Source of the DNA: Naegleria gruberi
Lineage: Eukaryota
NCBI GenBank assembly: GCA_000004985.1
Contig: GG738929.1
Length of the DNA: 64,000 bases
Reading direction: 5' to 3' (one strand)
Below, in pieces: positions 11,197 through 39,972 of this stretch. The notes under the pieces were generated by a model. That model saw only the letters and a list, made by a program, of their open reading frames with translations. It was not told the DNA's origin and did not search any database. The position numbers were made by a program, and so were the translations under genes. Position 1 is the first letter of the stretch. The number at the start of each line of letters is the position of its first letter.

Positions 11197-14100
11197 ATGA
11201 TTAACACAGGGAAGAGTGAGAGTCCTACATTTCGGAAAGATGCTCACTGCCCAGAGAGAAGACATGCAGTAGTAGGCGTTGATCCATTCAACAATAATTT
11301 ACAAACAAAATCTGAAACTTTCTCTTGGCTTCAAAAAGAAAATAACAAGACTGACGATAAATTCCTATTACCAAATAACAGCAGTTCTTCTACTGCAAAT
11401 GATACACATAGACTCTCTTCCGGAGATTTGGTAAATTCAATTACTGTTGAAGATGAAGGAGCAAAAAAAGTTTTGGTTGTAGATGATGATCGGGTAGCTC
11501 GTCAAGTTTTAACCAAGCTCTTGGAACAACTTGGTTTTCAAGGTATGTAATCTTCATTTGAATGTAATATGTTTATCTCTGATTGTATGACATTAATGCA
11601 TGACCTTACAACGCTCATTACATTTATGGTGTCTCTACAAAACGTACATGTAGTGAAAGCTGTCGAGGGAGGTAAACAAGCATTGGAAGTGTTAAGAGAA
11701 GAGGGTAATAATTATCATCTTCTCCTTGTAGATGTACTCATGCCTGATATGGATGGATTGCAACTGCTTAAAATTTTCAGACAAGCCTACTCTGAAGACA
11801 TGCCAATAATTAGTATGTATTTTAATGAATATGTTTTTGTTAACACGTTGGATAATAGTGGTTTCATCAAGTGAGGACCCCGATACAATTAATCAATGTT
11901 TCCAAAGTGGAGCTGAAGACTTTTTACAAAAGCCTGTTCAATTAGAAATTTTGAAAAGAAGAGTTAATATGTGTCTTGAGGACAGACTCAGACGCAGAAA
12001 AGAAAAAGCATATCAAGAAATGCTCCAAAATGAAAGAATCAATAGAAAGAAACTTACACTTCGTGTAAAGGAGCAAGAAAAGGAATTGGAAGAAATTAAG
12101 AATCAAATTAATAATACTGTAGAAACACCAATGCAGGTTGTTATGAAAACCATTGCTGATCTTATGGAAGGAAAGTATTCAATTGAAAATTCTAAGGGAG
12201 CTTTGATTGCTGTCCTTAGGTCACTAGGTTCTAAGGATTTATATAAACCAGCATTTTCCAATTTATTAAGAAAGGGAGAATTGGACGACAATACTAGAAG
12301 ATGGCTCCAAACAGAATTCATGAACGAAGGAGACAATAATGTAAATGGCAACAAATCTAACACACCAATATCTAATGAATCATCACCAACTACCGAAAAA
12401 AATTCACAACAAACTAAGGAGCAATCACAATCTTCATCAGCATCTAATCAACAAGTTTCATTATATCACAAGCAAGTTGATGATATTGTAACCAAAAACA
12501 CTTTACCAGGTGATTTAGGAAGTCATACATTTGATACTTTGAAATACTCACATGATCAATTAATCCAATTCATTGTCCAAATGTTTGAAAACTTGGGATT
12601 AATTGAAACATTCAAAATTCCACCAAAAGAACTTGTTGATTTATTAACAGTCGTAAGAGAATCATACAAACACAACCCATACCACAATTTTACTCATGCT
12701 GTAGATGTAACTCAATTTGCTTACCACCTTCTTCTTGTAGATAGAATTTCACAAATGTTTTCACCAATGGAAAAGTTTGCTCTGATGTTTTCTGCCATAA
12801 TGCACGATGTGGGACATCCTGGAGTTAACAATAACTATTTAATTAATATTAAGGATGAATTGGCTCTCATTTACAATGATGTTAGCGTGTTAGAAAATCA
12901 CCATGCATCACAAGCCTTTTACCTCCTTCTCAAACATAATATTTGCTCCAATCTTTCCAAGGATGAATTCAAAGAGTTCAGAAGACTGGTTATCAGTACA
13001 ATTTTATGTACAGACATGTCTCACCACTTTGAAATTCTCACCAAGTTCCAAACAAGACTTCAAACTGGTACGCTCTCTAAGGAAAGTAAGGAAGATAGAC
13101 TCCAACTGATGGGAGTAATTTTAAAGTGTTCTGACGTCAGTAATGCTCTCAGACCATTTGACGTTTCTGAAAAGTGGTCAAATGTCTTGTTGGAAGAATT
13201 TTTCTTACAGGGAGACAGTGAGAGAGACCGTGGATTACCAATCTCTCCTCTAATGGACAGAAGATCTGTTGACAAACCAAAGTCCCAGCTTAACTTTATT
13301 GATTACATTGCTGCACCACTTTTCAACAATTTAATCACTTATTGCTCATGCTTGAACACAACACTCGGAGAAACTTTGCAAAAAAATAGATCCTTGTGGG
13401 AAGAGAGGGCACAAGCTGCTTCGGGCATGGGAAGTAATCAACAAAAAGAAGATATTAGTAGTACCCATACAACAACAACAACAAAAAATACAATAACTAC
13501 AACAACAACAACAAAAACCTCCACTACAACAACTACAACAAATTCACAAGAAAAACCTGTACTCACTGGATCAATGCCAAGTCATTTCGCTAAAGCCAAA
13601 GGATTTACCATCCTGATTATTGATGATGAAAGTGCTCAATGTGCAAAGAAATTAGAACAACCTTTACTTTCACTTAGTTATACAGTTGTATCAACAACAT
13701 TAGCAAAAACCGAGAGTGAATTAGTCAAGTCAAAAGCAGACATTATTCTTTTAAATTACGATATTGTACAATCAACAGAATTGGTGCAAAAAATTAGATT
13801 GGTATCTCCGATTATACCTATAATTACAATTTCTTCCAATTCTGTACAAACCGATTGGTGCCAACAAAGTTTTGTAAGACCAGTAGACACTACAGCATTG
13901 ATTCACTCTGTTGAACATCATATTGAATTATCATTGGATAGGGTACAACCAATAGATTTGGAAATTGCTCTTGAGCAAACAGGTGGAGATGAGGAATTCT
14001 TGTGGGATATGTTGAATGAACTTATTGGTGCAGGAAGTGAGCAAATCGAGAAAATTAAACAATCAACAAAGACTTTGGATTGGGCATCTATGGAGCTTAA

Positions 14101-14281
14101 TTCTCACTCTCTGAAAGGTTCATCAGCACAGCTTGCTTGCAAACCATTATCGCAAGCTGCTTTATCAGTGGAAACGAGCTCTAAGAATCAAGACTCTGCA
14201 AATCTTGAACAAAAGATTGCTTTAATAGAAAAACGACTCAACGATTTAGCTAACTTTGTACAAAAACATCAGCAACAATGA
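11197..14281 (+). CDS. regA-like: RegA-like response-regulator cAMP phosphodiesterase fused to a C-terminal HPt domain: REC - class I PDE - pseudo-REC - HPt (975 aa, 3 exons)
   Basis: join(11197..11542,11654..11812,11859..14281); introns of 111 and 46 nt with GTATGT donors restore a continuous receiver domain (KKVLVVDDDRVARQVLTKLLEQLGFQ|VKAVEGGKQALEVL...LLLVDVLMPDMDGLQLLKIF...MPII|MVSSSEDPDTINQCFQSGAEDFLQKP). PDE metal-binding motifs YHNFTHAVDV and HDVGHPGVNN. Second receiver-like region FTILIIDDES...ADIILLNYDIV has Asn in place of the phospho-acceptor Asp. C-terminal HPt motif HSLKGSSAQLA. Confidence 0.85.
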
Positions 14282-14296
14282 TAAAATGTAAATTTA

Positions 14297-16339
14297 TTAC
14301 CTTATTTGAATAGTTACATCTTTTTCATAGCGGATAGAATGCTCCAAAAAAAGATGTTTTGTTTTTTCAATGTAGGCAAAGTCGGGCTTAATATTAACTC
14401 TGGAAACATAATTGCAAGCGTCCAACATAACTTCAATTCCATCACAAGTTACTTCTTCACACTCAACAATATTAATCTCTCTCAAATTTTTCAAAATGGA
14501 AACAGCATTCAAAGCCTCATCAGACAATAATGAGCACTGACTGAAGTCAATGACACGCAAATATTTACATCCTTCACATAATATTTCCACAGCATCATCA
14601 TTGAGATTTTCATTTCCACTAACAGAGAGTTCCTCTAACAAGGGAGTTGATTCAGAAAGTACAGTCATGGCTTGATTGATATCATCGACTGATTGAAGAG
14701 TTAAACATGTAACAGATTTTGATGTGAGTGCTTTTCTTAATCCTTGAGATGTATATCTTGCTTTAGATTTGAATCCTTGAATGAGGCCAAGCTTTTTTGG
14801 ACATTTCAAATACTTTCCAATATTTTCCAGAGAAACATCAGTCAACTTTTCCCAACGATTAAGGTTTAAATATTTGAGTGATGGGAATTTTTCCAACAAT
14901 ATTTGTAATCCTTCATCTGTAGCATTATAATTTGATTCACAAATAAAATGTGTAAACTTTTCATTACTAGAAACACTGTCTGCAATAACTTTGAGAACTT
15001 TGTTCGTAATTCTCAGACCCGTAGTATCGAGATGGTATAAATCACTCAAATTAGAAATTTCCTTAAGAGACTCTTCGCTAACTTGCCAGCAATTATCTAA
15101 AATAAGCTTCTTGACTGATTTACATTTCCTCAAAATGGTAGAAAGTGCCATATCATCCAAATTATCACATCGAGTTAAATTTAAATGGGTCAAATTCTTC
15201 AAAGAACCAAGTTTTTTAAATCCATTACTTTCTATGGAGTTCTCATTAAAAAGCTCTAAAGTTTTCAAACTTCCAAATTCTCCAAGATGACTACTCAAGC
15301 TGTCTTTAGAGGAGGAAATAAACTTAACATGTTTCAATGAAATTTTTGTTAAATCACAATCTTCAGACAAATCTTGCAATGATTTAAGGGTAAGGGAAGT
15401 TTCTGCATTTGTAAGTAATGTCCTAAAATGTCGTTCGCTGTTATTTGAAATGAATTTTAACATGGTTGGTGTGATTTTGTCTGATTCGATTTTCACCTTT
15501 CTCAATCTATTTGAAATGGTTTTCGAATCTTTAGGTTGTGCAACTGGTCCATGATAGGTTTTCAAATTTGGTAAAGAAAGTACATTGTTAAATTGCACTT
15601 CTTCTGTTGTAAAGGAATTTCCATCAATTTTCAAAATTTCAAGTTTTGGACAATTCTTAACAATTGAGCTTAAAACAGGGTGTGAAAAATCCTCTTCTTC
15701 AACAACAGCAACTGTTTCCTCCTCCTTCTTTGTTTTCCTCTTCTTTTTTGGTGGATTCTTTTTCACTTTCCTCTTTAAACAATTTCTAATTTCCAATCCA
15801 AGTAATATTGGTCCAAATTGTCGAGTTATTCTAATGATATCCTCTTCAGTGGCAATTTCATCCATGACAAGGTGAATGAAATGACTTTGATTTTCTCCAG
15901 CAGTGCTTAAATGTTGAGGATAATTAGGTTCATGATACCTCTTCCATATAATTTTGTGTACCTTTCCAATGATTTGCTTCTTCTTTTTCAAGGCTCTTTC
16001 TCTCTCTAGAATGTATCGGAGTGAGAGAAGGTAATCCATTGCAAAATCAGAGGCTTGTTTTGTTGCATCGTGTTGTGTTGCTTCCGATTCATCACTAAAG
16101 GCTGAAGCCACGCTTGGAGTGTCCATAATATCACCATTCAATAGAAAATCCTCTTCTTCATCAATGGGATCTCTTTCTTCATGCTCATCATGCTGATTCT
16201 CGGAAGGTGCCTCTAAGTGTTCTTGCTGTTCATCTTGATTTGAAGATAATGGTTCCATTGGACGATCATCCTCTTCATCAAATTCCAGACTTGTTGCCTC
16301 TTCCTGTTGCTCTTCTTCAGCTGATCGCTTCTTCGTCAT
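14297..16339 (-). CDS. Leucine-rich-repeat (RNI/cysteine-containing LRR) protein with acidic N-terminus and basic NLS-like patch (680 aa)
   Basis: ATG-initiated single ORF; about 12 LRRs of the LxxLxLxxCxxITD type; KKNPPKKKRKTKK stretch; stop only 15 nt from the convergent regA-like stop. Confidence 0.7.
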   Translation of the reverse strand: MTKKRSAEEEQQEEATSLEFDEEDDRPMEPLSSNQDEQQEHLEAPSENQHDEHEERDPIDEEEDFLLNGDIMDTPSVASAFSDESEATQHDATKQASDFAMDYLLSLRYILERERALKKKKQIIGKVHKIIWKRYHEPNYPQHLSTAGENQSHFIHLVMDEIATEEDIIRITRQFGPILLGLEIRNCLKRKVKKNPPKKKRKTKKEEETVAVVEEEDFSHPVLSSIVKNCPKLEILKIDGNSFTTEEVQFNNVLSLPNLKTYHGPVAQPKDSKTISNRLRKVKIESDKITPTMLKFISNNSERHFRTLLTNAETSLTLKSLQDLSEDCDLTKISLKHVKFISSSKDSLSSHLGEFGSLKTLELFNENSIESNGFKKLGSLKNLTHLNLTRCDNLDDMALSTILRKCKSVKKLILDNCWQVSEESLKEISNLSDLYHLDTTGLRITNKVLKVIADSVSSNEKFTHFICESNYNATDEGLQILLEKFPSLKYLNLNRWEKLTDVSLENIGKYLKCPKKLGLIQGFKSKARYTSQGLRKALTSKSVTCLTLQSVDDINQAMTVLSESTPLLEELSVSGNENLNDDAVEILCEGCKYLRVIDFSQCSLLSDEALNAVSILKNLREINIVECEEVTCDGIEVMLDACNYVSRVNIKPDFAYIEKTKHLFLEHSIRYEKDVTIQIR

Positions 16340-16496: not shown

Positions 16497-17585
16497 TTAT
16501 TTACGAGGTGGTCTGTATCCGTGCTTGATTGCTGTTTTGAGAAGATGGGGATCTTGCTGTAGTTGTGGAGGAAGATCTGGAAAGATTTTACCATTTAATC
16601 TGAGACATGAAATAATGTTGGATTTGGGAAGAGTAAGGAGTTGAGTTGGAGAAATTTTCATGATGGCATTAGCATTCGATTTTAGCAGTAAGGTCAGTAA
16701 AATTTCCTCACTCGAGTATGTGTAATTATCTGGAAGGTGTGAAATGGTGTGAGCTTTGAAATTTGGGGAACGAATGACTGTTTCAATAACACAATCAAGT
16801 TTTTTAAATTCTGTTGGAATGTGCTTGAGAATATCTGGATAAATTTCAAGAAGTTCTAAAATGATGTCCAGTGTTTGATACTTTTTTGGGATGAATTCTA
16901 AAGCAAAAGGAGTTTGTTTGAGGGCACATTTCAATATTTCCACATCTTCCATATAATCATCAAAAAATCCAATTGTTGTTCCATCTGCCTTTACGCATTG
17001 TAAAATTTGATCTCTGGTCAACTTGGACTTATCCAAATATTGAACTATCCCAGCACCAATCATGGCATTAATGACATCTTCATTCGAATGCAATTCTACT
17101 GGAATATTTTCAGCAATAATCATTCCACGGCCATCAGAATAGTTCAATGCATTTACAATAAATTCCTTATCATATTTGAACCCCTTTGGTAAACAATAGT
17201 AGTGTGTAGGATTAAACTGAATAATTTTCATTTGAATATCTCTATGACTTAACAATGAAGAATGAAAATGAACATATAGAGAGGGATGCAATTCAAGTAT
17301 TCTCAGAGCCATTTCTTTATCAGATCTCACTCTCTCAGACGCATACTCGTATGATTTGGGTTCCATTTCAATTATTATCCAAATAAAATCCAAATTATCA
17401 TCAAATCTACTTTTAAGAGTATTCAAAATTGGTCTATATAAAAAACATTCCACATATTTAGAATTTAACAATGCATCCAGAGCTTGCTTATCCTCAAACC
17501 AGTCATACCAATCCTTAATTATTCCAAGAATAGACCTATCATACCTGAGAGCTGTCAAACACAGATCGTGATCATTCCTAAGCAA
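16497..17585 (-). CDS. DUF4116-like repeat protein fragment (362 aa; TTG-start in the ORF track, no in-frame ATG)
   Basis: Repeats resembling DUF4116 (e.g. DKEFIVNALNYSDGRGMIIAENIPVELHSNEDVINAMIGAGIVQYL); frame is open 15 codons upstream but lacks ATG; immediately follows ORF 17591-18136 in another frame. Confidence 0.4.
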   Translation of the reverse strand: MLRNDHDLCLTALRYDRSILGIIKDWYDWFEDKQALDALLNSKYVECFLYRPILNTLKSRFDDNLDFIWIIIEMEPKSYEYASERVRSDKEMALRILELHPSLYVHFHSSLLSHRDIQMKIIQFNPTHYYCLPKGFKYDKEFIVNALNYSDGRGMIIAENIPVELHSNEDVINAMIGAGIVQYLDKSKLTRDQILQCVKADGTTIGFFDDYMEDVEILKCALKQTPFALEFIPKKYQTLDIILELLEIYPDILKHIPTEFKKLDCVIETVIRSPNFKAHTISHLPDNYTYSSEEILLTLLLKSNANAIMKISPTQLLTLPKSNIISCLRLNGKIFPDLPPQLQQDPHLLKTAIKHGYRPPRK

Positions 17586-17590
17586 CTTGA

Positions 17591-18136
17591 TTAATTGTTC
17601 AGTAAAAACTCCTCTCCAACTAAACTCTTAACAATTTCAGTTTCATTAATAACTAATTTCAAATCAAGTCTTGCCAATATATTTCTATTCATCGTATCCA
17701 TTCTCAACAAATCATTCAATAATGTTTCTTTCATTGATTTTGGTAATATGAAATAATATTCCAAATCTACTTTTAACAATTCCAAAGCTTTATCTCTATT
17801 GTGAATATTTAATTGAGTTAAACGCAAATAATTAATTAGATTTTTGCAGTAAATTAACTCTTCCTTATTGAATGTTGTAAAATGTTTATAAACAATTAGC
17901 ACGTGACGGGAAATGGAAATTAATTCCTTGACAAAATTTAAATCATCAATTACATCATCATTCAATTTGTAATTCTCCAGAAACGAAATTCTACTGTTTT
18001 GATCGATACATTCTTCTAAATCGGAGAGAAATTCAATTTGTTCGATTCTTTTTCGTTGCGTGTATGAAAAGAAAGATCGTAAATGATTACATGATGAAAA
18101 ATCTATCAATTCCAACACCACTTCATGTTCTGCCAT
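17591..18136 (-). CDS. Hypothetical protein (181 aa), probable N-terminal part of the downstream DUF4116-like gene
   Basis: ATG ORF ends 5 nt before the 16497-17585 ORF begins in a different frame; junction contains a T5 run (GAGTTTTTACTG). Confidence 0.35.
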   Translation of the reverse strand: MAEHEVVLELIDFSSCNHLRSFFSYTQRKRIEQIEFLSDLEECIDQNSRISFLENYKLNDDVIDDLNFVKELISISRHVLIVYKHFTTFNKEELIYCKNLINYLRLTQLNIHNRDKALELLKVDLEYYFILPKSMKETLLNDLLRMDTMNRNILARLDLKLVINETEIVKSLVGEEFLLNN

Positions 18137-18263: not shown

Positions 18264-19703
18264 TTAATCAATTTGTCTTCTGAGATATGGCAAAGCAATT
18301 CTGAAGAGCTTTTCATAATCAATCTTATCAGCTTCTTCGTCCCAGTTGTTATTAATATAACCCTTAACACCTTCCTTCAAATATGGGAGAGCAGCACGCA
18401 AAATTTCCTTGAATTTGATTTCAGCATCAGCTTCTTCTTGGTATTCAGCAGAAGCAGAAACGAGGTTCTTAAGATATTCCTTACCAGTCTTCTTGAGTTC
18501 ATCACGAACAACCTTCCAGATCTTCTTCAAGAACTTGTCAGATTGTGGCATATCTTCCAATGGAATACCGAATTGAGAGGTCAAATAAGCCTTACCCAAA
18601 CCCTTAGCAATACCAACGGCCTTCTTGAAGATCTTACCGAGCTTGAGGTCAGACATTTCTTCATTTTGGTCCCAGTTGTTGTTAATATATTCCTTAACAC
18701 CAGACTTGATGTATGGCAAAACCTTCTTCCAGATCTTACCTAACTTGAGCTTTTGAGCATCAGCAGCAGAGTCAAAGTTTTGGTTGACATATGACTTGAC
18801 AGCACCCTTTCCGATATCCTTAACAACCTTCCAGACCTTACCCCAGAATTTGTCAGACAATTCCATTTCTTCATCCCAGTTTTGATTGACATAATCCTTG
18901 GCAGCATTCTTTCCGATATCCTTAACAACCTTCCAGATTGAACTGAAAAACTTTTTATCAGCTTCTTCGTCGAAATTGTTAGCAATGTAGTTCTTAACAC
19001 CAGCCTTGATGTATGGCAAAATGGTCTTGATGACTTCAGACCACTTCTTGTCAGCCATTTCTTCAGCATCCCAGTTGTTATTAATATATTGTTTAGCACC
19101 TTCCTTCAAGTATGGGAGAACAGCCTTGAACAATTTACCCAATTTGAGATCAGCTTCTTCTTCTGGAATTTCATCCCAGTTCTTGTTGACGTAATCCTTG
19201 ATGGCAGCTGTTGGTAAATATTTGATAGGTAAAGATTATCGATACAGAGGTGATGATATCGAGATTCGAATAAAATTGTTATTAGAATCGAATAGTGACA
19301 GAAGATCAGAATCATCGGTTAAAAATAATTTCCAGTCCACAAAACGATATCATTGATGATAATATCAAATAAACAATAACCAGTTATCCTCATCATTTTC
19401 ATATTACTACTTACCCTTTCCAATTTCACCGACAACCTTCAAAGCCTTCTTCCAGAATGACTTGTCAGCCAATTCTTCATCAGTCAAAATGTAGTTAGCA
19501 GGAGTACGAATCAATCTCTTGATGAGAGCAGGGGAAAGAACCAAATCAGCTTGTTCTTCAACAACAGCTGGTTGTTGTTTCAAGAAATTCTTGAAGAAAA
19601 TTGACAATTCTTGATCAGCTTGTTCAGTAACTTGAGCAGAGACTGCAATAGTTGCGAACAAGGCGACGAGCAAGAGAGCAAGTAATTGCTTGGAAACGTT
19701 CAT
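18264..19703 (-). CDS. Secreted Lys/Trp-rich tandem-repeat protein (410 aa, 2 exons)
   Basis: join(complement(19415..19703),complement(18264..19207)); signal peptide MNVSKQLLALLLVALFATIAVSA; 207-nt intron (GTAAGT...AACAG) in phase 1; second exon has about 8 degenerate repeats of roughly 36 aa (consensus ~ KIWKKVLPYIKSGVKEYINNNWDxxEE) with acidic spacers. Confidence 0.6.
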
Positions 19704-20945: not shown

Positions 20946-20987
20946 ATTGATTTTTACATGTAAGGAAATTGTTTAAAAAGATTATTA

Positions 20988-21062
20988 ACCCGCTACCAGG
21001 ACTTGAACCTGGATCATGCGGAATGAATAAGTCGCATATTCTAACCATTGAACTACAGCGGG
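20988..21062 (-). tRNA. tRNA gene with enlarged anticodon region (identity unresolved)
   Basis: Minus strand CCCGCTGTAGTTCAATGGTTAGAATATGCGACTTATTCATTCCGCATGATCCAGGTTCAAGTCCTGGTAGCGGG: perfect 7-bp acceptor stem, D-arm GTTC/GAAT, T-arm CCAGG-TTCAAGT-CCTGG; anticodon stem ATGCG/CGCAT encloses 12 nt (ACTTATTCATTC). Confidence 0.55.
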
Positions 21063-21144
21063 TTGTGTAAATTATCTAAAAATATAATCATGATCAGCAT
21101 ACGCTTACAAATAAAAACATACCGAATGCAATGTTTATTGAAAA

Positions 21145-23040
21145 TTATTGAAAAAACTCTGGAAAATAAAAGTACAATATCATTCCTATAGTAGAAATGA
21201 TCAGGAATGAACTCATCCATGAAATGGAAGATGACTCTGGTTCACTTGTTGTTACCTCTTCATTTTCTTGAGTTTCTTCAACTTGTTCTTCCTCCTTATT
21301 GAGTTCCTCTATCTGATTCTTCAATTGTTTGTTTTCTTTTGTTAAAAGAACATTTTCTGCTTGAAGCTGTTTGATGATCTTTTCTTTTTGAAGAGTCATA
21401 TAAGTATCCTTCTTCAACTGAGATATCTGTTGATCCTTTTCTTGTATTTTTTGTAATAATTCTTGTTCGACTTCTGAGTTGGAAGTAGTATCTTGTTGTT
21501 TCTTATTGGATTTTACATCTTTTTGGGAGGAAACTGGTTGTTGAGAATGGGTTGTAGTCTTTTTGAAAATTGCTTCATAATTTTCAATTAAAAACTGACA
21601 AAAATCACAAACAATAGCGATTGTTTGTTGTTGATTTTTGAGTTGAGTTTTAAGAGAAAATCTTTGATATTCATCCATGTTCAATTTCTTTGAATCGCTC
21701 TCTGATGGAAGGTAGAGTAAATTAGGACCAATCACGATACCCATATTCTTACTTGTCATTTTAGTAAGTGTCACATTTTCTTCATTACAACAAATTTCAT
21801 GTAATAAATTCATGAGCTCTGACAATATCGATTTGTTACATTCTGGAAGGTCAATCATGAGAAGTTTGACCTTATCAATAAGAGTTTTGGTTTTTTCAGG
21901 AGTTCTTCCAGTAAACATTTCAATTACCTCCTCATACTTGTCAAATGTGAGTAAACATTCAGGTAAGTTTCTAATATAATGTTTGATTAAATCTGCAACT
22001 ACCATCACACCAAAACTTTGTGGAATTTCAATAGCCAAATCATTGTACATTTCTGGGAATGCCATAAAACTGTTAAACAATTTACACAACTCTAACACTC
22101 TTCTCTTTGAACCAGCCTCTCTGAATATTCCCAAAGTTTTCACACCCTTATTATCTCTCAAATATTTCAAACAAACTCTGAGAATGTATGGAACTTTGAT
22201 GGGATTTAACAATTCCTTACCTAATAAATCTCCACAAATTGGTTTTCGTGTACTGTCTTCCTTCTTTTCCAATTGTTTGTGATATTGTTGCATATTGAAG
22301 AGAGTTTCATTGAGGCAGACCATTGTTGGAGAGAGATTCATAACACAAACTCTTGACAAATCAATGGCAGGATTCAGTTCAATAAAGAGAAAATCATCAC
22401 TAATATGATCTACGTTGGAAAGGAATTCATTGGAAGATAATACATGACATAATTGATCCATGTTAGTACTATTTGAATTGAACATTTGAATTTCAATAAT
22501 TTGAAACAAGTATATAACTTACCATTCTCCAGCATAACTGAAAACAGTATCTGACATTTTCACCATCTTCTTTTTGATTTTCCCCTTTTGTTGCTCAGGA
22601 GGATTGAATAAATTATCGGCAGACAATTGACTATTCGAAGGAAGATTAGAATCCAAAACAGTACTCGATGGAGCAGTAGTGGTAGTTGTGGATGACGAAT
22701 TATTCATAATTTTCTTTTTGAGATTGAGTGAGGATCTTCCAATGTTAGTCAGAAAATTCTTCTTTTGTTTGGTTTTAACACACCACAATAGGAATGAAAC
22801 TTGTTGCTCCTTTTCGAGTGGTGATTGAGAGAATGTGGAGGCATACTCTGAAAAGATTTTAGAAATTGAGCTGTCAGGAGATTTGGCTGGCAGAAGGATT
22901 TGTAACTTTTCCTGAAGAGAGTCAAGAATATTGAGAAAGGTTATTTGTTTGTAGTTAGTATTGTTTGATGAAACGTTATCTAGGTAGATTGTTTCTGAAG
23001 ATAATTTGACAATAATCTTCGGGAGTGTGATTAGAGACAT
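21145..23040 (-). CDS. RhoGAP-domain protein with coiled-coil and C-terminal transmembrane anchor (613 aa, 2 exons)
   Basis: join(complement(22523..23040),complement(21145..22468)); 54-nt intron GTAAGTTATATACTTGTTTCAAATTATTGAAATTCAAATGTTCAATTCAAATAG joins ORF 22519-23109 to ORF 21145-22509 in phase 2; RhoGAP core LGIFREAGSKRRVLELCKLFN plus downstream helices; C-terminal hydrophobic tail SISWMSSFLIISTIGMILYFYF. Confidence 0.7.
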
Positions 23041-32804: not shown

Positions 32805-34413
32805 TTAGTGATCTTTTTTAGCTCCTTCTATTACTGATTCACATTTCCATTTCTTTTCCTCGAAATTATATTTCCACAAACGAACTGAGCCATCATCTCC
32901 ACTACTAGCAAGAACAGTTCCACTCAAATTCCATTCAACTTTCCAAACTTCAGAATTGTGTTTGTGTGTTTCATCAATGTCCATTAACTCGATAGATTTC
33001 GTTTCAGAGTTGAGTTTCCAAATTCTTACAGAGCCATCCTTAGATGCTGATGCAATTAAATCGTAAGATCTTCCTAAATTTGGAGCCCATGATACGTCAT
33101 GAATTGGTTGTGAATGACCAATTAAAGGAATGACTTGAGTAATATTTCCTTCATTCACAACAATGGATTTCAAGGCTACAGAACCTGGTGTGTATCCAAC
33201 TAGTTGTGAGATATTTTGTGCATTAGGAATAACCTGTGACGGAATCCATGCTTGCCATTTTCTATTTTGTGTATAGTGCCAAATTCTTAATTTACCATCT
33301 TCACATCCAATAACCATCATTGGTTCTTTAAACCTATATGGACACCAACTCATACAGTGAATTTTTCCTCCATTATTAGCATCAAAATCAAATCCGATAC
33401 TCCAGTGAGCAAGATTCATCACATCAAAAGCTTCATAGACACGAACTTTCCCTGATAGAGAGCATGTAGCAAGCTTTAACCCCAAGTGCTTCGGTGCAAA
33501 TTTAATATCTACAACATCATCAGTGGAATCGACAAGAGTTGCCTTCAAAAGCCAGGATCTTCTCGATGCATGAGGATTATTCACAGGATTAGGTGATGTA
33601 TTTTGAACAGTAGAATTATTGACCATATTTACATTACCACCAACCATTACACTATTCAAGTTGGTAGAACTGGAAGAACTTGGCAAATTACCACTACTTG
33701 ATGAATGATCCATTCCTCCACCAACAATTACTCCATTTGAAACTGGTGATGTATTTCCATCAACTCCATCATTGGTAGTTGTGTTTGAAGTTGATGATGA
33801 ATTTTGAATAATATTTGATGTTGAAGAAACAACTCTTTGAACAGTACTAGATTGATTTGATGAAGGTTGTCCAATAATTCCTTGTGATATAACCAATGGT
33901 GCTAAACCACTAGCAGGTCCTGTATTTGCAGGCGGTTCTTCCCAAATACTAACAGTATGATCATAGGAACATGAAGCTAAAACTTGTCCGAATTCTGGAT
34001 GAGCCCATTCAACTTTCCAAATACTTCCATTATGTGCTTTCCAATCATAAACACATTTCCAGGTTTTTGATTTACTTGGATCCGAATATTGATGATTAAT
34101 AAGATTATTATTTGTATTAGGACTCTGTGATGAATTATTCACGGTAGCAACATCTACTTTATCCCAAACTTTAATATGATGATCACTGGAACAAGAGGCA
34201 ATACGCTCTCCATAGAAATCATACTTTAGATCGTGTAGATAATAATTGTGTGTGCTGGGAAATGTTTCAACAATCCTCTAAAAAGCAATACATAATAAAT
34301 ATATCATACAACAACATCCAACAAATTACATAAAAACATCATTATCACCATATAAAATCCGATCAAGATGATTAATTTTCCATCAACACATCAACCAATA
34401 AAAAACTCACCAT
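32805..34413 (-). CDS. SEH1: Seh1 (Sec13/Seh1-family WD40; nucleoporin/GATOR2 subunit), 2 exons
   Basis: join(complement(34411..34413),complement(32805..34277)); exon 1 codes only ATG, then a 133-nt GTGAGT...TTTTAG intron. Exon 2 begins RIVETFPSTHNYYLHDLKYDFYGERIASCSSDHHIKVWDK, continues ...WKVEWAHPEFGQVLASCSYDHTVSIWEE...FAPKHLGLKLATCS...VSWAPNLGRSYDLIASASKDGSVRIWK...VWKVEWNLSGTVLASSGDDGSVRLWKYNFEEKKWKC, and matches human SEH1L block by block; contains a Ser/Asn/Thr-rich insertion of about 90 aa. Confidence 0.8.
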
Positions 34414-34617
34414 GATTATTTTGCGATTTTATTTTGAGCGTGTTTTTAAACTCCGAATTTTTCGTCGTTTCATAATCGCAATCTTCAAGTAAAACAAAGC
34501 ATATTATTACATCATGTTGAAAATAAGATATTAATAGTATCCAATTAATATTAATTATTATCAATGTGTTTAATAGAATCAAAGATTATAATATTGGATT
34601 TATCATCTTGAAAAAAA

Positions 34618-36254
34618 ATGAAATATTCGAAACAACAGTCAACTCGCACAGTTGTAGGCTTGATTGTCCTTGTACTGATGTTGTGTTCTTGCTGCTGGTT
34701 GGTTGTTGCCAATTCTACTACACAACAACAACAACAACTAGAAAATTCCATAACCAAACACGATTTGAAACTCTTGAAAATCTTGGCCAAGTTGTCAAGA
34801 GGAAAATTAATGAAGGAATTGGGTGAAAAGTTTACTCACGACAATACTATTCTTGCTGGTAAGTGTTTTTATTAGAGTTGTGGATGTTTAATTTATATAT
34901 AATATTTTGTAAAGATTATAATTTTGTCAATGGAATGAAAGATATTCTTCCACATATGAAAGTAATCATCAAGACTGTTGTTGTTGGAAGTAACATGACA
35001 GAACCAATGGTTGTTAAGGAACAAAGAAAGGAATTTAATGGTGAAATGAAAAAGTATTTGCCAGAGATTTTTGGTAAATTCAAGAATGTTTTTGGAAACT
35101 TTGTAAAGGATTTGAGTTCTGACATTAATTTTACAATGCCAGAAAAATCATTGTGGAAACAATTTTTGAAAATTTCCAGAAGAGCTCACAAGCAATTTGT
35201 TAAAGGAAAGTGGAATCATTCTGTAAAAGAAGTCAATAATAAGGATGCTCTCTACTGGAGACAAGTTAAGGATATGATGAAGCAATTCAAAACATCAAAC
35301 GAAACTAATGTTCCAAAGAAATCATCTTCTCAACAAGAATTTAAAACAGTCGATGAAAAACAATACTGGAAAGATGTTTTGAAAATGATCAAGGAATTAA
35401 AGAAAGATTCCAAGCAACCTGTTGATGCCAAGAAGGAAGAAGACAGAAAGTATTGGAGACAAGTTAAGGGCATGATGAAGGAATTCAGAAAACCACAAGA
35501 TAACAAAAAGGAAGAAGACAAAAAGTACTGGAGACAAGTATCTTCTCTTATCAAATCATTTGGTAAAGATCGTATGAAGAAACCTTATGGTTTAGTTGAT
35601 GAAAAGAAAGAATCTGATCGTACATATTGGATCAACGTAAAGAGGATGATTAAAGAAAACTTTGAATCTCCAAAGAAAGAAACCTCTCCAAAAGATGTTG
35701 CTTACTGGCGTGATGTTCACAAGATGATCAAGGACGTCTCCATCAAGAAGAAATTGGATCAAGATCGTGAGTTTATTTCCAAGCCATTGGAAAGAAAATT
35801 GAGAAAGTGGTCACCATCTCACAGAGTTCTCAACAAAAAGCTCAGAAAAGAAATGAAACCAGCTCTCAAGATGATCACTTTAATCTCCTTCCAATCATCT
35901 GGTAATTCCACAAAGGAAATTTCAAAGAATTTGAAGCAAGTATTGTACAATGTAGTTCCATACCTCAAGGAACATGCCAAGAAGGGTGGAAAATTGAACA
36001 TTTTACAAGTAACACCCCTCATCAAGGAAGGTGTTAAGGATATGATAATCAGAGATACCAAATTAATGGGAAGCACCTTTAGAAAGAATATGTGGAATTT
36101 AATAACAAAGCTCAACAAACACATCTTTGAGAATCCAACCTCTTTCAAAATGGAGGGATTAAAGTTGCCATTCAGCATGTTGAAGAAGATGAATAAGACA
36201 ATCAAATCTATTAGAAAGATTGACGATTTTGATATGCTTGCTGATTCTCTTTAG
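34618..36254 (+). CDS. Secreted Lys-rich tandem-repeat protein (526 aa, 2 exons), paralog of the 18264-19703 gene
   Basis: join(34618..34858,34915..36254); signal peptide MKYSKQQSTRTVVGLIVLVLMLCSCCWLVVA; 56-nt GTAAGT intron; six repeats of about 30 aa (consensus K.YWRQVK.MIKEFxK....KKEED); C-terminal segment VVPYLKEHAKKGGKLNILQVTPLIKEGVKDMI shares the LPY(L/I)K(E/S)G(V/A)K motif of the other gene. Confidence 0.6.
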
Positions 36255-36345
36255 ATAATAATACATTAATTATTTCTCTCAGTCAAATCCACAATCTTTC
36301 TTATAGTTATGATCTTCATCTTCTGTTGGATAAAAGTAAAAGCAA

Positions 36346-36418
36346 CTCCCCCTGGTGGGCTCGAACCACCGACCTGCAGATTAACAGTCTGACGCTCTAC
36401 CGACTGAGCTAAGGGGGA
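36346..36418 (-). tRNA. tRNA-Asn (anticodon GUU)
   Basis: Minus strand TCCCCCTTAGCTCAGTCGGTAGAGCGTCAGACTGTTAATCTGCAGGTCGGTGGTTCGAGCCCACCAGGGGGAG: 7-bp acceptor, D-arm GCTC/GAGC, anticodon loop CTGTTAA, T-arm GGTGG-TTCGAGC-CCACC; one T-C mismatch at 27:43. Confidence 0.8.
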
Positions 36419-36532
36419 TTACATGTACTAAGAATGGTTTCCACTAATATACAGACAAACGTCACTTTAATCAAATTTGTTAAATTTATTGTGGGAACAT
36501 TTACTGAACTCTGATTACAAAATTGAAAAAAA

Positions 36533-36994
36533 ATGTCAATATTCAATTTGCACCCTCTTAGTTTGCTCCCTGTTTTATATCATCTATTGCCGTTCATGAA
36601 TGATAGGAGCATACACAGACTTGCACAATGTTCCTCCGATTGTCATGAATCTATTCGCAATATTAAAAGACGAGAATTGTATTATTTAATTGATGAAGGA
36701 AATAAATTGGTAGGTGATCCGATGATAATAAGAAGTATCGATCAAGTGGAGTGTATCAATGATCCTGAAAGTATTCGAATTTCTGCAATGATTGATAGGA
36801 GAGAGGCAGAATTGTCAATTATATTTCCATCGTATGTGAAGGATTTTTTGCAAATTTGTGGAGATTTGGATTGTAGATCGAGATGGGATGATTTTTATCT
36901 TCATCCATCTAATATGATGCTTCCTTTTGAGGATTGGGAGTTTGTTTCAAATTCTCCATTAAAAACCAAGAAAGTGGATCAATCAACATTTTGA
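36533..36994 (+). CDS. F-box-like ORF (153 aa), probably the N-terminal part of one gene with the following DUF4116-like ORF
   Basis: LSLLPVLYHLLPFMNDRSIHRLAQCS F-box-like motif; stop at 36992-36994, but the +1 frame is open from 36963 and runs into the 37014 ORF; A5 run (TTAAAAACC) at the overlap. Confidence 0.4.
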   Translation: MSIFNLHPLSLLPVLYHLLPFMNDRSIHRLAQCSSDCHESIRNIKRRELYYLIDEGNKLVGDPMIIRSIDQVECINDPESIRISAMIDRREAELSIIFPSYVKDFLQICGDLDCRSRWDDFYLHPSNMMLPFEDWEFVSNSPLKTKKVDQSTF

Positions 36995-37013
36995 AAGGTG
37001 GCAACGAGAAAAA

Positions 37014-38360
37014 TTGCTAGTGATTGGGTATTTAAAAACAATGAGGGCATGTTTGGTGTTGGAAACTGTGACAGGTGTTTTGTACTGTTTTAAATTTAAT
37101 AACTTTACCAAATTACTGAACTTTACCAATTGGTATAAATCATTCCCAACACAAATAGGGAGTAAATTAAGGAAGAGAATTGATAAATTCAAAGAGGAAC
37201 AAATTTTAGAGACAAAATATACAAACAACACACCAATTGTATCAACAGGAAAATATAGATACCTGTCAATGGAAAGGAAAAAGGACCACAATATAATTCA
37301 TAATGTAATGCAATCAGGTTATATTGAAAATAGCCTTCCTTTTGAATATAGAGATAATCCAGATTTCATGTTAGAGTATATAAGGAGAAATGTTGCTGCT
37401 TTTCTTATATGTTCAAAAAGACTTAAATTTGATCCTAGTTTTGTAGAGAGAGCTAATGAAATTGATTTCTGCATGGCATATATTAATGATTCTAGAAATT
37501 GGAATAATACTATGAGATTTAAATATGGCAAGGTTGTAAATATAGTGGATGATTTTCTTGTAAAATATGTAGAAGGAAGACAGATAGTTCAAGTTAATAA
37601 TAATTACAACAAGAAGGAAAATGAATCACCACCTCCAATTAATGGAAATCCACTAATTGCCAATCATAAACCAGCCATGGTAAGAGTGAAAGAAAATGGA
37701 CTCTACTTAAAGTATTGCACCGAGGAATTAACATCCAATAGAGACATTGTATTTACAGCAGTTCAAAATAATGGAATGGCTCTCTCTTTTGCTCATGTAA
37801 AATTCAGAGAGGATGTTGAGATAGTTAGAGAAGCCCTTTTCAATAATCCATATTCTATTCGATTAATTTCTACATCATTTCTTGACAATAATGAAGAAAT
37901 TATTCTAAATTTTATGGCTAGAAACTTGTGCAACTTTGAATACTTAATTCCTTCCAAGTATACTTCAAATTTCGACCTGATGAGAAAGGCCATTATTCTC
38001 AATCCTCACAATTATTCAAGAACATATCCACCCTCAATAACTCTTTCACTTAATAATGAAAAAATTAAGACACTAAGACACGATAAGGAATTAATAATTC
38101 CCTATATTTGGTTTAATCCAAACAAAATACCGGCATTAATGAGAAAACTCCCAATCGAATGCATCGACAGGGATGTAGTCTTGGCTGTCATACTTGCACC
38201 AAACAATTTCAACTGTTTAGACAAATCATCTGATTTTATATTGAGGAGAAAGATGAAGTATAAAGAGATTTTAGATATTAAATACAAGTTCTCCACCAAT
38301 ATACTCATCAACTCAATCTCAATATCAACAATGAAATCAACCTCAATTAATCAAGTTTAA
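37014..38360 (+). CDS. DUF4116-like repeat protein (448 aa; TTG start in track, no ATG)
   Basis: Repeats such as SNRDIVFTAVQNNGMALSFAHVKFREDVEIVREALFNNPYSIRLIS resemble DUF4116; frame open upstream to 36963, overlapping the F-box ORF. Confidence 0.4.
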   Translation: MLVIGYLKTMRACLVLETVTGVLYCFKFNNFTKLLNFTNWYKSFPTQIGSKLRKRIDKFKEEQILETKYTNNTPIVSTGKYRYLSMERKKDHNIIHNVMQSGYIENSLPFEYRDNPDFMLEYIRRNVAAFLICSKRLKFDPSFVERANEIDFCMAYINDSRNWNNTMRFKYGKVVNIVDDFLVKYVEGRQIVQVNNNYNKKENESPPPINGNPLIANHKPAMVRVKENGLYLKYCTEELTSNRDIVFTAVQNNGMALSFAHVKFREDVEIVREALFNNPYSIRLISTSFLDNNEEIILNFMARNLCNFEYLIPSKYTSNFDLMRKAIILNPHNYSRTYPPSITLSLNNEKIKTLRHDKELIIPYIWFNPNKIPALMRKLPIECIDRDVVLAVILAPNNFNCLDKSSDFILRRKMKYKEILDIKYKFSTNILINSISISTMKSTSINQV

Positions 38361-38505
38361 CCTTAAAAAAGAATGGCACTTTTAGGAGTATTGTTAAATT
38401 GGCTTTTCACTACCATGATAAATATTACTACACAATGTAAATTTCACAATTTACCAATTTATTTGATATTATTATTAAATTTACCCTCATTACAATCTCT
38501 CAAAA

Positions 38506-39972
38506 ATGTCGTCACTCGATTTAGCAGAGGATTTTACTCTCCAACCATCAACGATGCTGCTAGTAGTCGACAAGTACATGTTTTGTCATATCATTTCCTT
38601 CATGCCCTATTTCTATCAATCAAAATTTAAGCGATTAAACAAGTATACCTTAAAGTGGATCGAGTACAATCAAAAGTATTTACTCATTCAGAGGATATTA
38701 AAGTTCACTTCATCAGAGGAGATGAAGAAGAAACATCCCGATTATTATGAACATATTGTAAAGGATTCAAATAGAGTTCTTTTGGAATTGGATGATTTGA
38801 AACATGTGGAGAGGGAGGATTTTGTTAAATGTGATTTATTTTCAATTATGGAAGATCCAGAGAAATTATTGGAATTTATCAAACAATTTTATTATCTAAA
38901 TGATAAGAGATGGCTATTGTATTGGAATAATGTTGGAGATGCATATTTCTCTCAGAAAACAATCTATGATACTGACATGTTGTTTGATAGAAAGTATGAG
39001 GAAGCATTTCAGTTGGAAGGAAATGTAACAATGTTGGATGAGCAAATTGCCAGACATTTCTTTATTAACTTGACAGTAATTGGTGTAAAAACTCTATCAG
39101 TTCCTCTTCCACAATATTTGGACACGCTGTACATGGTAGGGATAGCTGGCGTGGAGTTCTTATTTAGTAGTTTGGAACCCTCTTCAGGAGAGCCATCAAC
39201 GTATTATCATCTGTTTCACAGGGCAATTCCATTCTTTACCAATTGTTTCACAAGTGTCAGGAAGAAGAAAGGCATTAAGAAAATTAGAAACTGTGTACCT
39301 TTAAAGACCAATATTCAATCAAGGAAACGAGCTGAAAAGTATTTGTTACAATGTGCACAGGCCCACAATGTTCATCCTTCCCTTATACCACTTGGAGAGC
39401 TTTTCGTTTATTCCATGTTTGACAAGGAAAAGAAATCTCAACTCAATTGGGAAAATGCTGTATATTTCTATGAAAAATCTATAATATCAGTTTGTGAAAA
39501 GTTGAGAAATGCAGCTGTTGGCAAGGAAATGGACATTACTCAATTTTTATTCACACCAATATTGGAAATTGCAAGAAAAACCTATCTTTCTGAAAAAAGT
39601 GAATCAAAATTTTTAACCTCACTCAATCTATTTCACCAAGACGGAACTGTAAAAGAAAATAAGGAACGATTGGAATATCTTTTAAAGTTTGTGGATCAAG
39701 AATGTTTTACTAATCTTTCTCTTCCAATTCTGGTTAGAATTCTCGATTCTGAAACCAAGTCAAAATTCCAGAAATTCTACTTACACACAACACTCCAAAT
39801 CAAGAAATTCAAATTGGAAGATTATAAACTATACAGTTGGGAGAATGATGTTATGAATACTGCTTTAACATTCATGCCCAAGAAAGAAGAGCTACCCAGA
39901 CCAGCAGAAACCAATTCACAACAAAAACCAACAAAGCAAAAGAACAAGTTCACTAAAATAAATGTAGACTAA
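38506..39972 (+). CDS. Hypothetical protein (488 aa), possibly F-box-related
   Basis: ATG-initiated single ORF; weak F-box-like N-terminus (TMLLVVDKYMFCHIISFMPY); no other domain. Confidence 0.45.
   Translation: MSSLDLAEDFTLQPSTMLLVVDKYMFCHIISFMPYFYQSKFKRLNKYTLKWIEYNQKYLLIQRILKFTSSEEMKKKHPDYYEHIVKDSNRVLLELDDLKHVEREDFVKCDLFSIMEDPEKLLEFIKQFYYLNDKRWLLYWNNVGDAYFSQKTIYDTDMLFDRKYEEAFQLEGNVTMLDEQIARHFFINLTVIGVKTLSVPLPQYLDTLYMVGIAGVEFLFSSLEPSSGEPSTYYHLFHRAIPFFTNCFTSVRKKKGIKKIRNCVPLKTNIQSRKRAEKYLLQCAQAHNVHPSLIPLGELFVYSMFDKEKKSQLNWENAVYFYEKSIISVCEKLRNAAVGKEMDITQFLFTPILEIARKTYLSEKSESKFLTSLNLFHQDGTVKENKERLEYLLKFVDQECFTNLSLPILVRILDSETKSKFQKFYLHTTLQIKKFKLEDYKLYSWENDVMNTALTFMPKKEELPRPAETNSQQKPTKQKNKFTKINVD

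What the first reader, a model, noticed from the sequence alone, without database searches (positions are those of the whole stretch)
36533..38360. F-box-like ORF and DUF4116-like repeat ORF overlap in adjacent frames at an A5 run; probably one gene
Seen in sequence: the F-box-like ORF stops at 36992-36994, but the +1 frame is already open from 36963 and continues for 448 codons of DUF4116-like repeats with no ATG of its own. The frames cross at TTAAAAACC. The same pairing (ORF then DUF4116-like ORF, no ATG on the second, frame change at a T5 run) recurs at 16497-18136 on the minus strand. Two independent instances of the same two-part architecture argue that the ancestral gene is a fusion protein (F-box-like N-terminus plus DUF4116 repeats). 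The breaks are then either single-base homopolymer indel errors or young pseudogenes. The shift directions differ (+1 versus -1), which argues against programmed frameshifting.
Basis: partly seen in the sequence, partly recalled or inferred. Interest (0 to 1): 0.5.

Follow-up and report, generated by a model that had tools for sequence, protein, structure and literature searches.

The report
Frameshift-split DUF4116 gene in Naegleria
In the amoeba Naegleria gruberi, one lineage-specific gene (an F-box-like head plus DUF4116 repeats) is cut into two reading frames because five bases are missing compared with relatives; this is an ordinary young frameshift or annotation problem, not a new mechanism.

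Summary
The window is Naegleria gruberi NEG-M nuclear DNA from the Sanger reference. The two ORFs and the frame change at the A5 run (36961-36965) are real. Three relatives encode both halves as one continuous protein: a N. gruberi paralogue, a single-exon 579-aa N. lovaniensis gene and an environmental contig.

The lesion is not a one-base homopolymer slip. A 98%-identical environmental strain reads TTAAAA-GTTCC-ACC, which keeps the frame (LKVPPR; the paralogue has LKIPSR). The window lacks those 5 bases, and the A5 run is a by-product of that loss. The other strain has instead lost about 380 bp, covering the start codon and the F-box-like head.

The DUF4116 body still shows purifying selection (pN/pS 0.30). 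The break is therefore young, or the body works alone from ATG 37041, where RefSeq starts its model.

No intron and no programmed frameshift fits the data. The second pair (16497-18136, minus strand) is probably also one broken gene. Its head is unrelated to ORF1, and no comparator was found for it.

The F-box call is only weakly supported. The break falls inside a SUKH-like domain that is also only weakly supported. Interest is low.

The parts
36533..36964 (+). 5' part of the gene in its original frame: an F-box-like N-terminus and the first two thirds of a SUKH-like (SMI1/KNR4-like) region. It is not annotated in RefSeq.
   Evidence: The ORF is listed. An exhaustive HMMER search with ORF1 found 4 relatives (E 9.5e-40 to 7.5e-6). 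They align from the first residues onward. N. lovaniensis aa 6-125 hit 36551-36940 by tblastn. Codon usage is coding-like. The exact 153-aa product is not in the protein collection.
36961..36965 (+). The A5 run that marks the lesion. Five bases (GTTCC), present in the related strain, are missing between 36964 and 36965. The run is AAAA plus the A that followed the lost segment.
   Evidence: The alignment of the window with L001 reads CCATTAAAA[GTTCC]ACCAAG. With the 5 bases the frame reads PLKVPPRKW. This aligns without gaps to paralogue P0004 (LKIPSR), with the same 34-residue spacing from WEF to GY.
36965..36994 (+). Out-of-frame tail of ORF1 (TKKVDQSTF, then TGA), created by the frame break.
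   Evidence: No relative has this tail.
36966..38360 (+). 3' part of the gene in the shifted frame: the end of the SUKH-like region, a linker and the DUF4116 repeats. RefSeq model XP_002669250.1 (NAEGRDRAFT_75791) begins at ATG 37041.
   Evidence: Pfam DUF4116 E=9e-28, 4 stretches. The RefSeq protein is 100% identical. N. lovaniensis aa 137-475 hit 36969-38012. pN/pS against L001 is 0.30, with 9 synonymous and 11 non-synonymous changes; permutation P=0.026.
36531..36910 (+). Segment (about 380 bp, including ATG 36533 and the F-box-like head) that is deleted in the related environmental strain. This is a second, independent lesion of the same gene in another lineage.
   Evidence: L001 and L002 are two different assemblies of run ERR1078381. 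Both join about 36535 to about 36911, and the flanks are collinear at 97.4-98.0% identity.
38333..38334 (+). Second 5-base difference (AATTC, present in L001) that changes the last ~9 codons of the protein between the two strains.
   Evidence: The protein ends ...STMKSTSINQV* in the window and ...STMNSNQPQLIKFNLKKEWHF* in P0007.
17591..18136 (-). Second pair, upstream ORF-A (181 aa, ATG start). It is unannotated, unrelated to ORF1, not F-box-like and not detectably DUF4116.
   Evidence: Codon usage is coding-like. The exact product is not in the collection.
16497..17627 (-). Second pair, DUF4116 reading frame ORF-B. It is open from 17627, and the T5 run at 17604-17608 lies in the overlap. The first ATG is at 17366, where RefSeq XP_002669275.1 (NAEGRDRAFT_54321, 289 aa) starts. 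The 87 codons upstream of it have no ATG but look coding and contain a DUF4116 unit.
   Evidence: A home-made DUF4116 unit HMM scores the stretch upstream of the ATG (residues 16-39, LLRNDHDLCLTALRYDRSILGIIK) above 200 shuffles and 5 control proteins. Pfam gives a weak hit at the same place (E=0.11). Codon usage agrees.

Best explanation
Positions 36533-38360 are one Naegleria-specific gene. Its intact form is a single exon of about 580-610 codons: an F-box-like N-terminus, a SUKH-like region and DUF4116 alpha-helical repeats. By analogy with FBXO3-type proteins it is presumably a substrate adaptor of an SCF ubiquitin ligase; that function is inferred, not shown.

In strain NEG-M a 5-base deletion (GTTCC, between 36964 and 36965) shifts the frame inside the SUKH-like region. 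The head therefore terminates after 153 codons. The DUF4116 body can be made only from the internal ATG 37041, which is where RefSeq starts its model. This is a real, recent frameshift allele. It is either a young pseudogene or a 'decapitated' gene whose DUF4116 body still works on its own.

The minus-strand pair at 16497-18136 is most likely a second DUF4116 gene broken in the same general way. It has an unrelated N-terminal part and an unidentified lesion.

What is shown and what is inferred:
- Shown: the continuity of the relatives, the 5-base difference, the lack of an intron, and selection on the body.
- Inferred: that the deletion is biological rather than an assembly error, the F-box/SCF function, and everything about expression.
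For: Source of the window:
- It is N. gruberi NEG-M. Seven ORFs are exact RefSeq proteins from one 189,881-nt scaffold, and that genome was Sanger-sequenced.

One ancestral gene:
- HMMER with ORF1 finds P0004 (N. gruberi paralogue, 338 aa), P0005 (ENA) and P0006 (N. lovaniensis, 579 aa). All run through the junction and each hits both window ORFs.
- The N. lovaniensis gene is one uninterrupted 1740-nt ORF. It hits the window in two frames, with the change between 36940 and 36969.

Nature of the lesion:
- The orthologous locus of a ~98% identical strain has GTTCC at the junction and an intact frame.
- The restored LKVPPR aligns without gaps to LKIPSR of the paralogue, so the NEG-M state is derived.
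- The junction lies inside the weak SMI1_KNR4 match (P0004 residues 78-172, E=1.3e-4; repaired window protein 86-168). It is therefore not a clean domain boundary.

Not an intron:
- Introns elsewhere in the window are 46-111 nt with GTATGT or GTAAGT donors.
- Conserved coding sequence abuts the junction on both sides, which leaves no room for an intron.

Selection and integrity:
- In ORF2 pN/pS is 0.30; in the neighbouring genes it is 0.22 and 0.29.
- Three frame-affecting indels separate the two strains within this gene. There are none in the flanking coding regions.

Pair 2:
- 87 open codons without an ATG, with a DUF4116 unit and coding-like codon usage, lie upstream of the RefSeq start.
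Against: - No NEG-M reads, transcripts or peptides could be examined, so a 5-base error in the reference, or a heterozygous intact allele, cannot be excluded.
- pN/pS of 0.30 does not fit an old pseudogene. It fits only a very recent lesion or a still-functional body.
- The F-box and SUKH assignments are below Pfam thresholds, and the AlphaFold model of the paralogue's N-terminal 220 residues is unreliable (pLDDT below 50).
- The only close comparator is a metagenome contig from one sequencing run.
- For pair 2 there is no comparator at all. In addition, one search missed the exact RefSeq protein, so its negative result is not reliable.
Confidence: 0.75

Rival explanations
1. Assembly or sequencing error in the NEG-M reference. 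The genome really has GTTCC (or another frame-restoring sequence) at the junction, and the gene is intact.
For: The reading frame is restored exactly by the 5 bases seen in a 98%-identical strain. ORF2 shows purifying selection. A second 5-base shortfall in the window, relative to the same strain, lies at 38333 in the same gene.
Against: The reference is Sanger-based, where losing 5 non-repetitive bases is unusual. The sister strain independently carries a far larger lesion in the same gene, so disruption of this gene in nature is demonstrably tolerated. The other indels between the strains lie outside coding regions, as expected for real variation.
Confidence: 0.12
2. Functional gene fission. 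After the break, the DUF4116 body (from ATG 37041, as RefSeq models it) and perhaps the 153-aa head are expressed as separate working proteins.
For: pN/pS is 0.30 in the body, with permutation P=0.026. Both strains keep a long open DUF4116 frame with a usable ATG (37041 in NEG-M; ATG ATG at the equivalent of 36914 in L001), although each lost the link to the head in a different way.
Against: The break cuts through the SUKH-like region rather than between domains. No promoter or transcript evidence exists for an internal start. With only 20 substitutions, the selection signal may simply reflect time before the lesions. This reading overlaps with the best explanation rather than excluding it.
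Confidence: 0.2
3. Programmed +1 ribosomal frameshift at UUA-AAA-A, and a -1 shift at the U5 run of the second pair, producing the full-length proteins.
For: tRNA-Lys could re-pair perfectly one base forward on the A5 run (read from the sequence). Both DUF4116 loci in the window show a homopolymer in the overlap.
Against: All relatives, including a 98%-identical strain, have a plain continuous frame. The A5 run is created by the deletion itself. There is no stop or rare codon in the A site and no conserved stimulator. The shifted product would lack two conserved residues (VP). The two pairs need opposite shift directions.
Confidence: 0.02
4. A spliceosomal intron joins the two ORFs.
For: The organism has short introns, and several adjacent same-strand ORFs in the window are exons of one gene. 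Many GT...AG combinations keep an open frame.
Against: Homologous coding sequence runs up to the junction on both sides with zero spare bases. The one GTATGT in ORF1 (36832) lies inside conserved codons (SYVKDF). Pair 2 contains no GTATGT, and no donor of the GTAAGT/GTATGT type seen in the window's verified introns gives an intron under 329 nt. The N. lovaniensis gene is a single exon.
Confidence: 0.01

Closest known systems
FBXO3 / SKIP16-type F-box proteins (F-box + SUKH-1/SMI1-KNR4 domain)
   Same: The order is the same: an N-terminal F-box-like motif followed by a SUKH-like region. In FBXO3 that region is thought to recruit substrates to an SCF ubiquitin ligase (Zhang, Iyer and Aravind 2011, PMC3113570). 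Weak SMI1_KNR4 and F-box-like Pfam hits fall at the corresponding positions.
   Different: The C-terminus here is DUF4116 repeats, not the ApaG/DUF525 immunoglobulin-like domain. Both N-terminal assignments are below the Pfam cut-offs. The family was found only in Naegleria and in Naegleria-like metagenome contigs (4 hits among 1.84 billion representatives).
DUF4116 (PF13475) repeat proteins
   Same: Both DUF4116 ORFs in the window score far above the gathering threshold with four repeat stretches each. The family is predicted to form an alpha-solenoid (PMC8078820), and the confident part of the AlphaFold model (paralogue residues ~230-320) is helical.
   Different: No function is known for the family. 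The combination with an F-box-like/SUKH-like head was seen only in these few Naegleria sequences.
Strain-specific frameshift alleles / young unitary pseudogenes that annotation pipelines model from the first downstream ATG
   Same: There is a small frame-breaking deletion relative to intact relatives. The upstream part is left unannotated, and the RefSeq model starts at the first in-frame ATG after the break.
   Different: The downstream body still shows purifying selection. A sister strain has lost the same N-terminal module through a different lesion.

Membership tests
DUF4116 (PF13475) repeat protein | Match to PF13475 above the curated gathering score, in several tandem ~49-aa units | tested here: met
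   ORF2 scores 96 bits and ORF-B 115 bits against a cut-off of 24.9, with 4 stretches each.
F-box protein (PF00646 / PF12937) | Significant match to an F-box profile at the N-terminus | tested here: inconclusive
   ORF1 has no Pfam hit at E<=0.1. PF12937 reaches E=0.013 in one of six family members. A profile of the first 60 residues places the F-box of TIR1 (residues 5-47) third among PDB chains, at a non-significant E=2. The whole-family profile finds no F-box chain.
F-box protein (PF00646 / PF12937) | Binding to Skp1 and assembly into an SCF ligase | not testable with these tools
   This needs pull-down or two-hybrid experiments.
SUKH-1 / SMI1_KNR4 (PF09346) | Match above the gathering score (25.4 bits), or a confident alpha/beta SUKH fold | tested here: inconclusive
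   Paralogue P0004 scores 23.0 bits (E=1.3e-4, residues 78-172). The repaired window protein scores 14.2 bits (E=0.071, residues 86-168). The AlphaFold model shows helices followed by three strands there, but pLDDT is below 50, so no fold search was run.
FBXO3 orthologue | C-terminal ApaG/DUF525 domain after the F-box and SUKH domains | tested here: not met
   The C-terminus is DUF4116 repeats, and no ApaG/DUF525 hit was found.
Programmed ribosomal frameshift site | The frame change and slippery site are conserved in orthologues | tested here: not met
   The 98%-identical strain, the N. gruberi paralogue and the N. lovaniensis gene are all continuous ORFs.
Spliceosomal intron | GT...AG element with the local donor consensus (GTATGT/GTAAGT, 46-111 nt in this window) lying between conserved exon sequences | tested here: not met
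   Homologous codons abut at the junction. No consensus donor gives a plausible intron at either pair.
Pseudogene | A disabling lesion relative to intact relatives | tested here: met
   A 5-base deletion causes a premature stop after 153 codons.
Pseudogene | Neutral evolution (pN/pS near 1) after inactivation | tested here: not met
   pN/pS is 0.30 in ORF2 between the two strains, similar to the neighbouring genes. Nine or more synonymous changes out of 20 occur in only 2.6% of random placements. The test cannot separate time before the lesion from time after it.
Pseudogene | No functional product | not testable with these tools
   No transcript or peptide data were available. No paper mentions these gene identifiers.

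The most novel reading that the evidence does not exclude
Two N. gruberi lineages have independently uncoupled the F-box-like head from the DUF4116 body of the same gene: a 5-base frameshift in NEG-M and a ~380-bp deletion in an environmental strain. The body stays under purifying selection. This could be recurrent, possibly favoured, 'decapitation' or fission of an SCF-adaptor-like gene, freeing a DUF4116 repeat protein from ubiquitin-ligase coupling. The second DUF4116 locus in the window may be another case.
Probability: 0.12. Interest if true: 0.4.

Novelty: new member of a known kind. Interest (0 to 1): 0.17.

Why it matters
The main value is practical. Two RefSeq models of N. gruberi, XP_002669250.1 and XP_002669275.1, are N-terminally truncated readings of broken or mis-modelled genes, and the upstream parts are unannotated. 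The work also defines a small Naegleria-specific architecture: an F-box-like head, a SUKH-like region and DUF4116 repeats. That gives the uncharacterised DUF4116 repeats a possible link to ubiquitin-ligase substrate recognition. Finally, it shows that a frame break at a homopolymer need not be a homopolymer error, because here the A5 run was created by a 5-base deletion. None of this touches an open question in the field.

Tried and rejected
- **Intron:** I enumerated all in-frame GT...AG joins for both pairs and compared them with real introns in the window. Rejected, because conserved codons abut at the junction.
- **One-base homopolymer error:** rejected for pair 1 by the 5-base difference and the Sanger origin of the reference.
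- **Common origin of the two upstream ORFs:** BLASTP and phmmer found only the DUF4116 parts to be related.
- **ORF-A as cryptic DUF4116:** a unit HMM built from 26 repeats does not score it above shuffled versions.
- **F-box by PDB sequence profiles:** nothing significant.
- **Structure:** the AlphaFold2 model of the paralogue, from a 5-sequence alignment, has mean pLDDT 50 and is below 50 over most of the N-terminal 220 residues. No fold search was made.
- **Word-index protein searches:** these were nearly empty. even missed the exact RefSeq protein that later found, so its negative result is unreliable.
- **Exact-product look-ups:** ORF1, ORF-A, ORF-B from its TTG start, and the reference contigs for the acetyl-CoA carboxylase ORF, P0001 and P0004 all returned nothing.
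- **JGI metagenome scans:** a scan for pair 2 relatives and a scan for more N. gruberi-like junction sequences found nothing.
- **Synteny with N. lovaniensis:** none of the neighbouring genes match, so orthology versus paralogy of that gene is open.
- **Literature:** a search on the gene identifiers found nothing.

Full report
**What the window is.** The window is gene-dense, 32-37% G+C, and eukaryotic. It holds a 2218-aa multidomain acetyl-CoA carboxylase, a RegA-like response-regulator/phosphodiesterase, Pus10 and Dus. ORF2 of the finding is 100% identical to a Naegleria gruberi predicted protein. Seven ORFs of the window are exact RefSeq proteins of N. gruberi NEG-M, all on one 189,881-nt scaffold. 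That genome was Sanger-sequenced (PMC9928731, Table 1).

**Checking the observation.**
- ORF1 (36533-36994, 153 aa, ATG to TGA) is as described.
- The adjacent frame, open from 36963 to the stop at 38358-38360, is as described. The frames overlap across TTAAAAACC, with the A5 run at 36961-36965.
- ORF2 is a clear DUF4116 protein (PF13475, 96 bits).
- The minus-strand pair (17591-18136 and 16497-17585, open from 17627, T5 run at 17604-17608) is also real. It needs the opposite shift, and its second ORF is DUF4116 (115 bits).
- These are the only two DUF4116 loci in the window.
- Two details are wrong. First, both downstream ORFs do have in-frame ATGs (37041 and 17366), and RefSeq starts its models there: XP_002669250.1 with 439 aa and XP_002669275.1 with 289 aa. 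Second, ORF1 has no significant F-box match.
- Neither upstream ORF is in the protein collection.

**Pair 1 is one gene.** An exhaustive HMMER search with ORF1 against 1.84 billion representatives found four proteins:
- a 111-aa fragment from an ENA contig (72% identity);
- N. gruberi paralogue NAEGRDRAFT_63818 (338 aa);
- a 208-aa ENA fragment;
- N. lovaniensis C9374_011812 (579 aa).

The last three continue without interruption from the ORF1-like part into sequence homologous to the ORF2 frame, and the two longer ones carry DUF4116. Each hits both window ORFs. The N. lovaniensis gene is a single 1740-nt ORF. By tblastn it matches the window in two frames: aa 6-125 at 36551-36940 and aa 137-475 at 36969-38012.

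**What the lesion is.**
- The cluster of the RefSeq protein contains a 508-aa variant from metagenome run ERR1078381.
- Its contig L001 (5523 nt) and an independent Logan assembly, L002, are collinear with window 33749-39424 at 97.4-98.0% identity. This is the orthologous locus of a closely related strain.
- At the junction that strain reads CCATTAAAA-GTTCC-ACCAAG, whereas the window reads CCATTAAAA-ACCAAG.
- With the five bases the frame is continuous (…SNSPLKVPPRKWINQHF…). It aligns without gaps to the N. gruberi paralogue (…THFLKIPSRTEIEKKF…), with identical spacing between the conserved WEF and GY.
- The window state is therefore a derived 5-base deletion. The A5 run is its by-product, not the site of a one-base slip.

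**Other differences between the two strains.**
- The same comparison shows that the other strain lacks about 380 bp (window ~36531-36910). That removes the start codon and the whole F-box-like head.
- A further 5-base difference at 38333 changes the last codons.
- So three frame-affecting indels separate the two strains within this one gene. The two flanking coding regions have none.

**Is the gene dead?** Between the two strains, ORF2 has 9 synonymous and 11 non-synonymous changes (pN/pS 0.30). The neighbouring genes give 0.22 and 0.29. Placing the same substitution types at random gives 9 or more synonymous changes in 2.6% of trials. The DUF4116 body has therefore been under constraint for most of the divergence. 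Either the breaks are recent or the body functions without the head. Both strains retain an ATG that could serve the body: 37041 in NEG-M, and ATG ATG at the equivalent of 36914 in the other strain. Expression could not be tested, and no paper mentions these genes.

**Alternatives.**
- *Intron.* Introns verified by homology in the RegA-like gene are 111 and 46 nt with GTATGT donors. An apparent 54-nt GTAAGT intron lies at 22469-22522 on the minus strand. Neither junction offers such an element, and homologous codons meet with no spare bases.
- *Programmed frameshifting.* This is excluded because every relative is continuous.
- *Reference error.* This cannot be excluded without reads, but losing five non-repetitive bases in Sanger data is uncommon.

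**What the protein is.**
- The N-terminal ~45 residues have an F-box-like pattern, but the support is weak. PF12937 reaches E=0.013 in one member, and the F-box of TIR1 appears at E=2 with a 60-residue profile.
- Residues ~80-170 give sub-threshold SMI1_KNR4 (SUKH-1) hits: 23.0 bits against a cut-off of 25.4 in the paralogue.
- The frame break falls inside this region, not at a domain boundary.
- F-box plus SUKH is the known FBXO3/SKIP16 arrangement, in which SUKH is proposed to recruit substrates (PMC3113570). Here the C-terminus is DUF4116, a predicted alpha-solenoid (PMC8078820), rather than ApaG.
- AlphaFold on the paralogue was unreliable for the N-terminal 220 residues. A role as an SCF adaptor is therefore an inference.

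**Pair 2.**
- ORF-A is unrelated to ORF1 and is not detectably DUF4116.
- The 87 codons without an ATG that lie upstream of the RefSeq start of ORF-B are coding-like. They contain a DUF4116 unit that outscores 200 shuffles and 5 controls (a weak Pfam hit).
- The RefSeq model is therefore truncated. The abutting 181-codon ORF-A, which also looks coding, is the obvious missing N-terminus.
- No relative could be found to show the intact state. One search is unreliable because it missed the exact RefSeq protein. The lesion need not be the T5 run.

**Verdict.** This is a correct spot and a largely correct inference of one ancestral gene, but the proposed cause is wrong. The feature is an ordinary strain-specific frameshift in a fast-evolving, lineage-specific gene, together with truncated reference annotations. 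The only mildly unusual aspect is that two strains lost the same head through different lesions while the body stays constrained.

Noticed in passing
window 36346-36418 (-), versus L001: The tRNA-Asn(GTT) gene just upstream of ORF1 has an 11-base deletion in the related strain's contig (window 36391-36401, GACGCTCTACC). Either that strain's copy is disrupted or the metagenome assembly is faulty there.
   Followed up: no
window 20987-21063 (-): ARAGORN reports a tRNA of undetermined type with a four-base anticodon 'attc'. It could be an intron-containing tRNA, a pseudo-tRNA or a false call.
   Followed up: no
window ~11400-14281 (+): This is a RegA-like gene: response-regulator receiver, class I cyclic-nucleotide phosphodiesterase and Hpt domain. 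Its receiver domain is split by two short introns, at 11543-11653 (111 nt) and 11813-11858 (46 nt), both with GTATGT donors. I used them as the local intron standard.
   Followed up: partly
L003 (ENA ERZ27245887 k141_54549, 539 nt), positions 121-539: In this contig an ORF1-like N-terminus (72% identical) stops after ...SYVKDFLQI. It is followed directly by the reverse complement of sequence homologous to window ~37350-37430 (FEYRDNPDFMLEYIRRNVAAFLICSKRLK). This is either an inversion in another Naegleria or a chimeric assembly.
   Followed up: partly
L005 (ENA ERZ27254845 k141_1800358), positions 1080-1098: The contig ends in the Illumina adapter AGATCGGAAGAGC. The stop codon of protein P0005 is made by that adapter, so the protein's 208-aa length is an artefact.
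   Followed up: yes
window 38333/38334 and 38358-38383: A 5-base difference (AATTC in L001) changes the C-terminal tail of the DUF4116 protein between the two strains. Which state is ancestral is unknown. In both 5-base differences, the window is the shorter sequence.
   Followed up: partly
tool behaviour, versus 24, 66: The word-indexed protein search missed the exact RefSeq product of ORF-B (XP_002669275.1) and the paralogues later found by exhaustive HMMER.
   Followed up: yes
window 14297-16339 (-) and 18264-19142 (-): The neighbours of the second DUF4116 pair are a 680-aa leucine-rich-repeat protein of the F-box/LRR type and a 292-aa protein made of NNWDEE-type repeats. Neither was examined further.
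   Followed up: no
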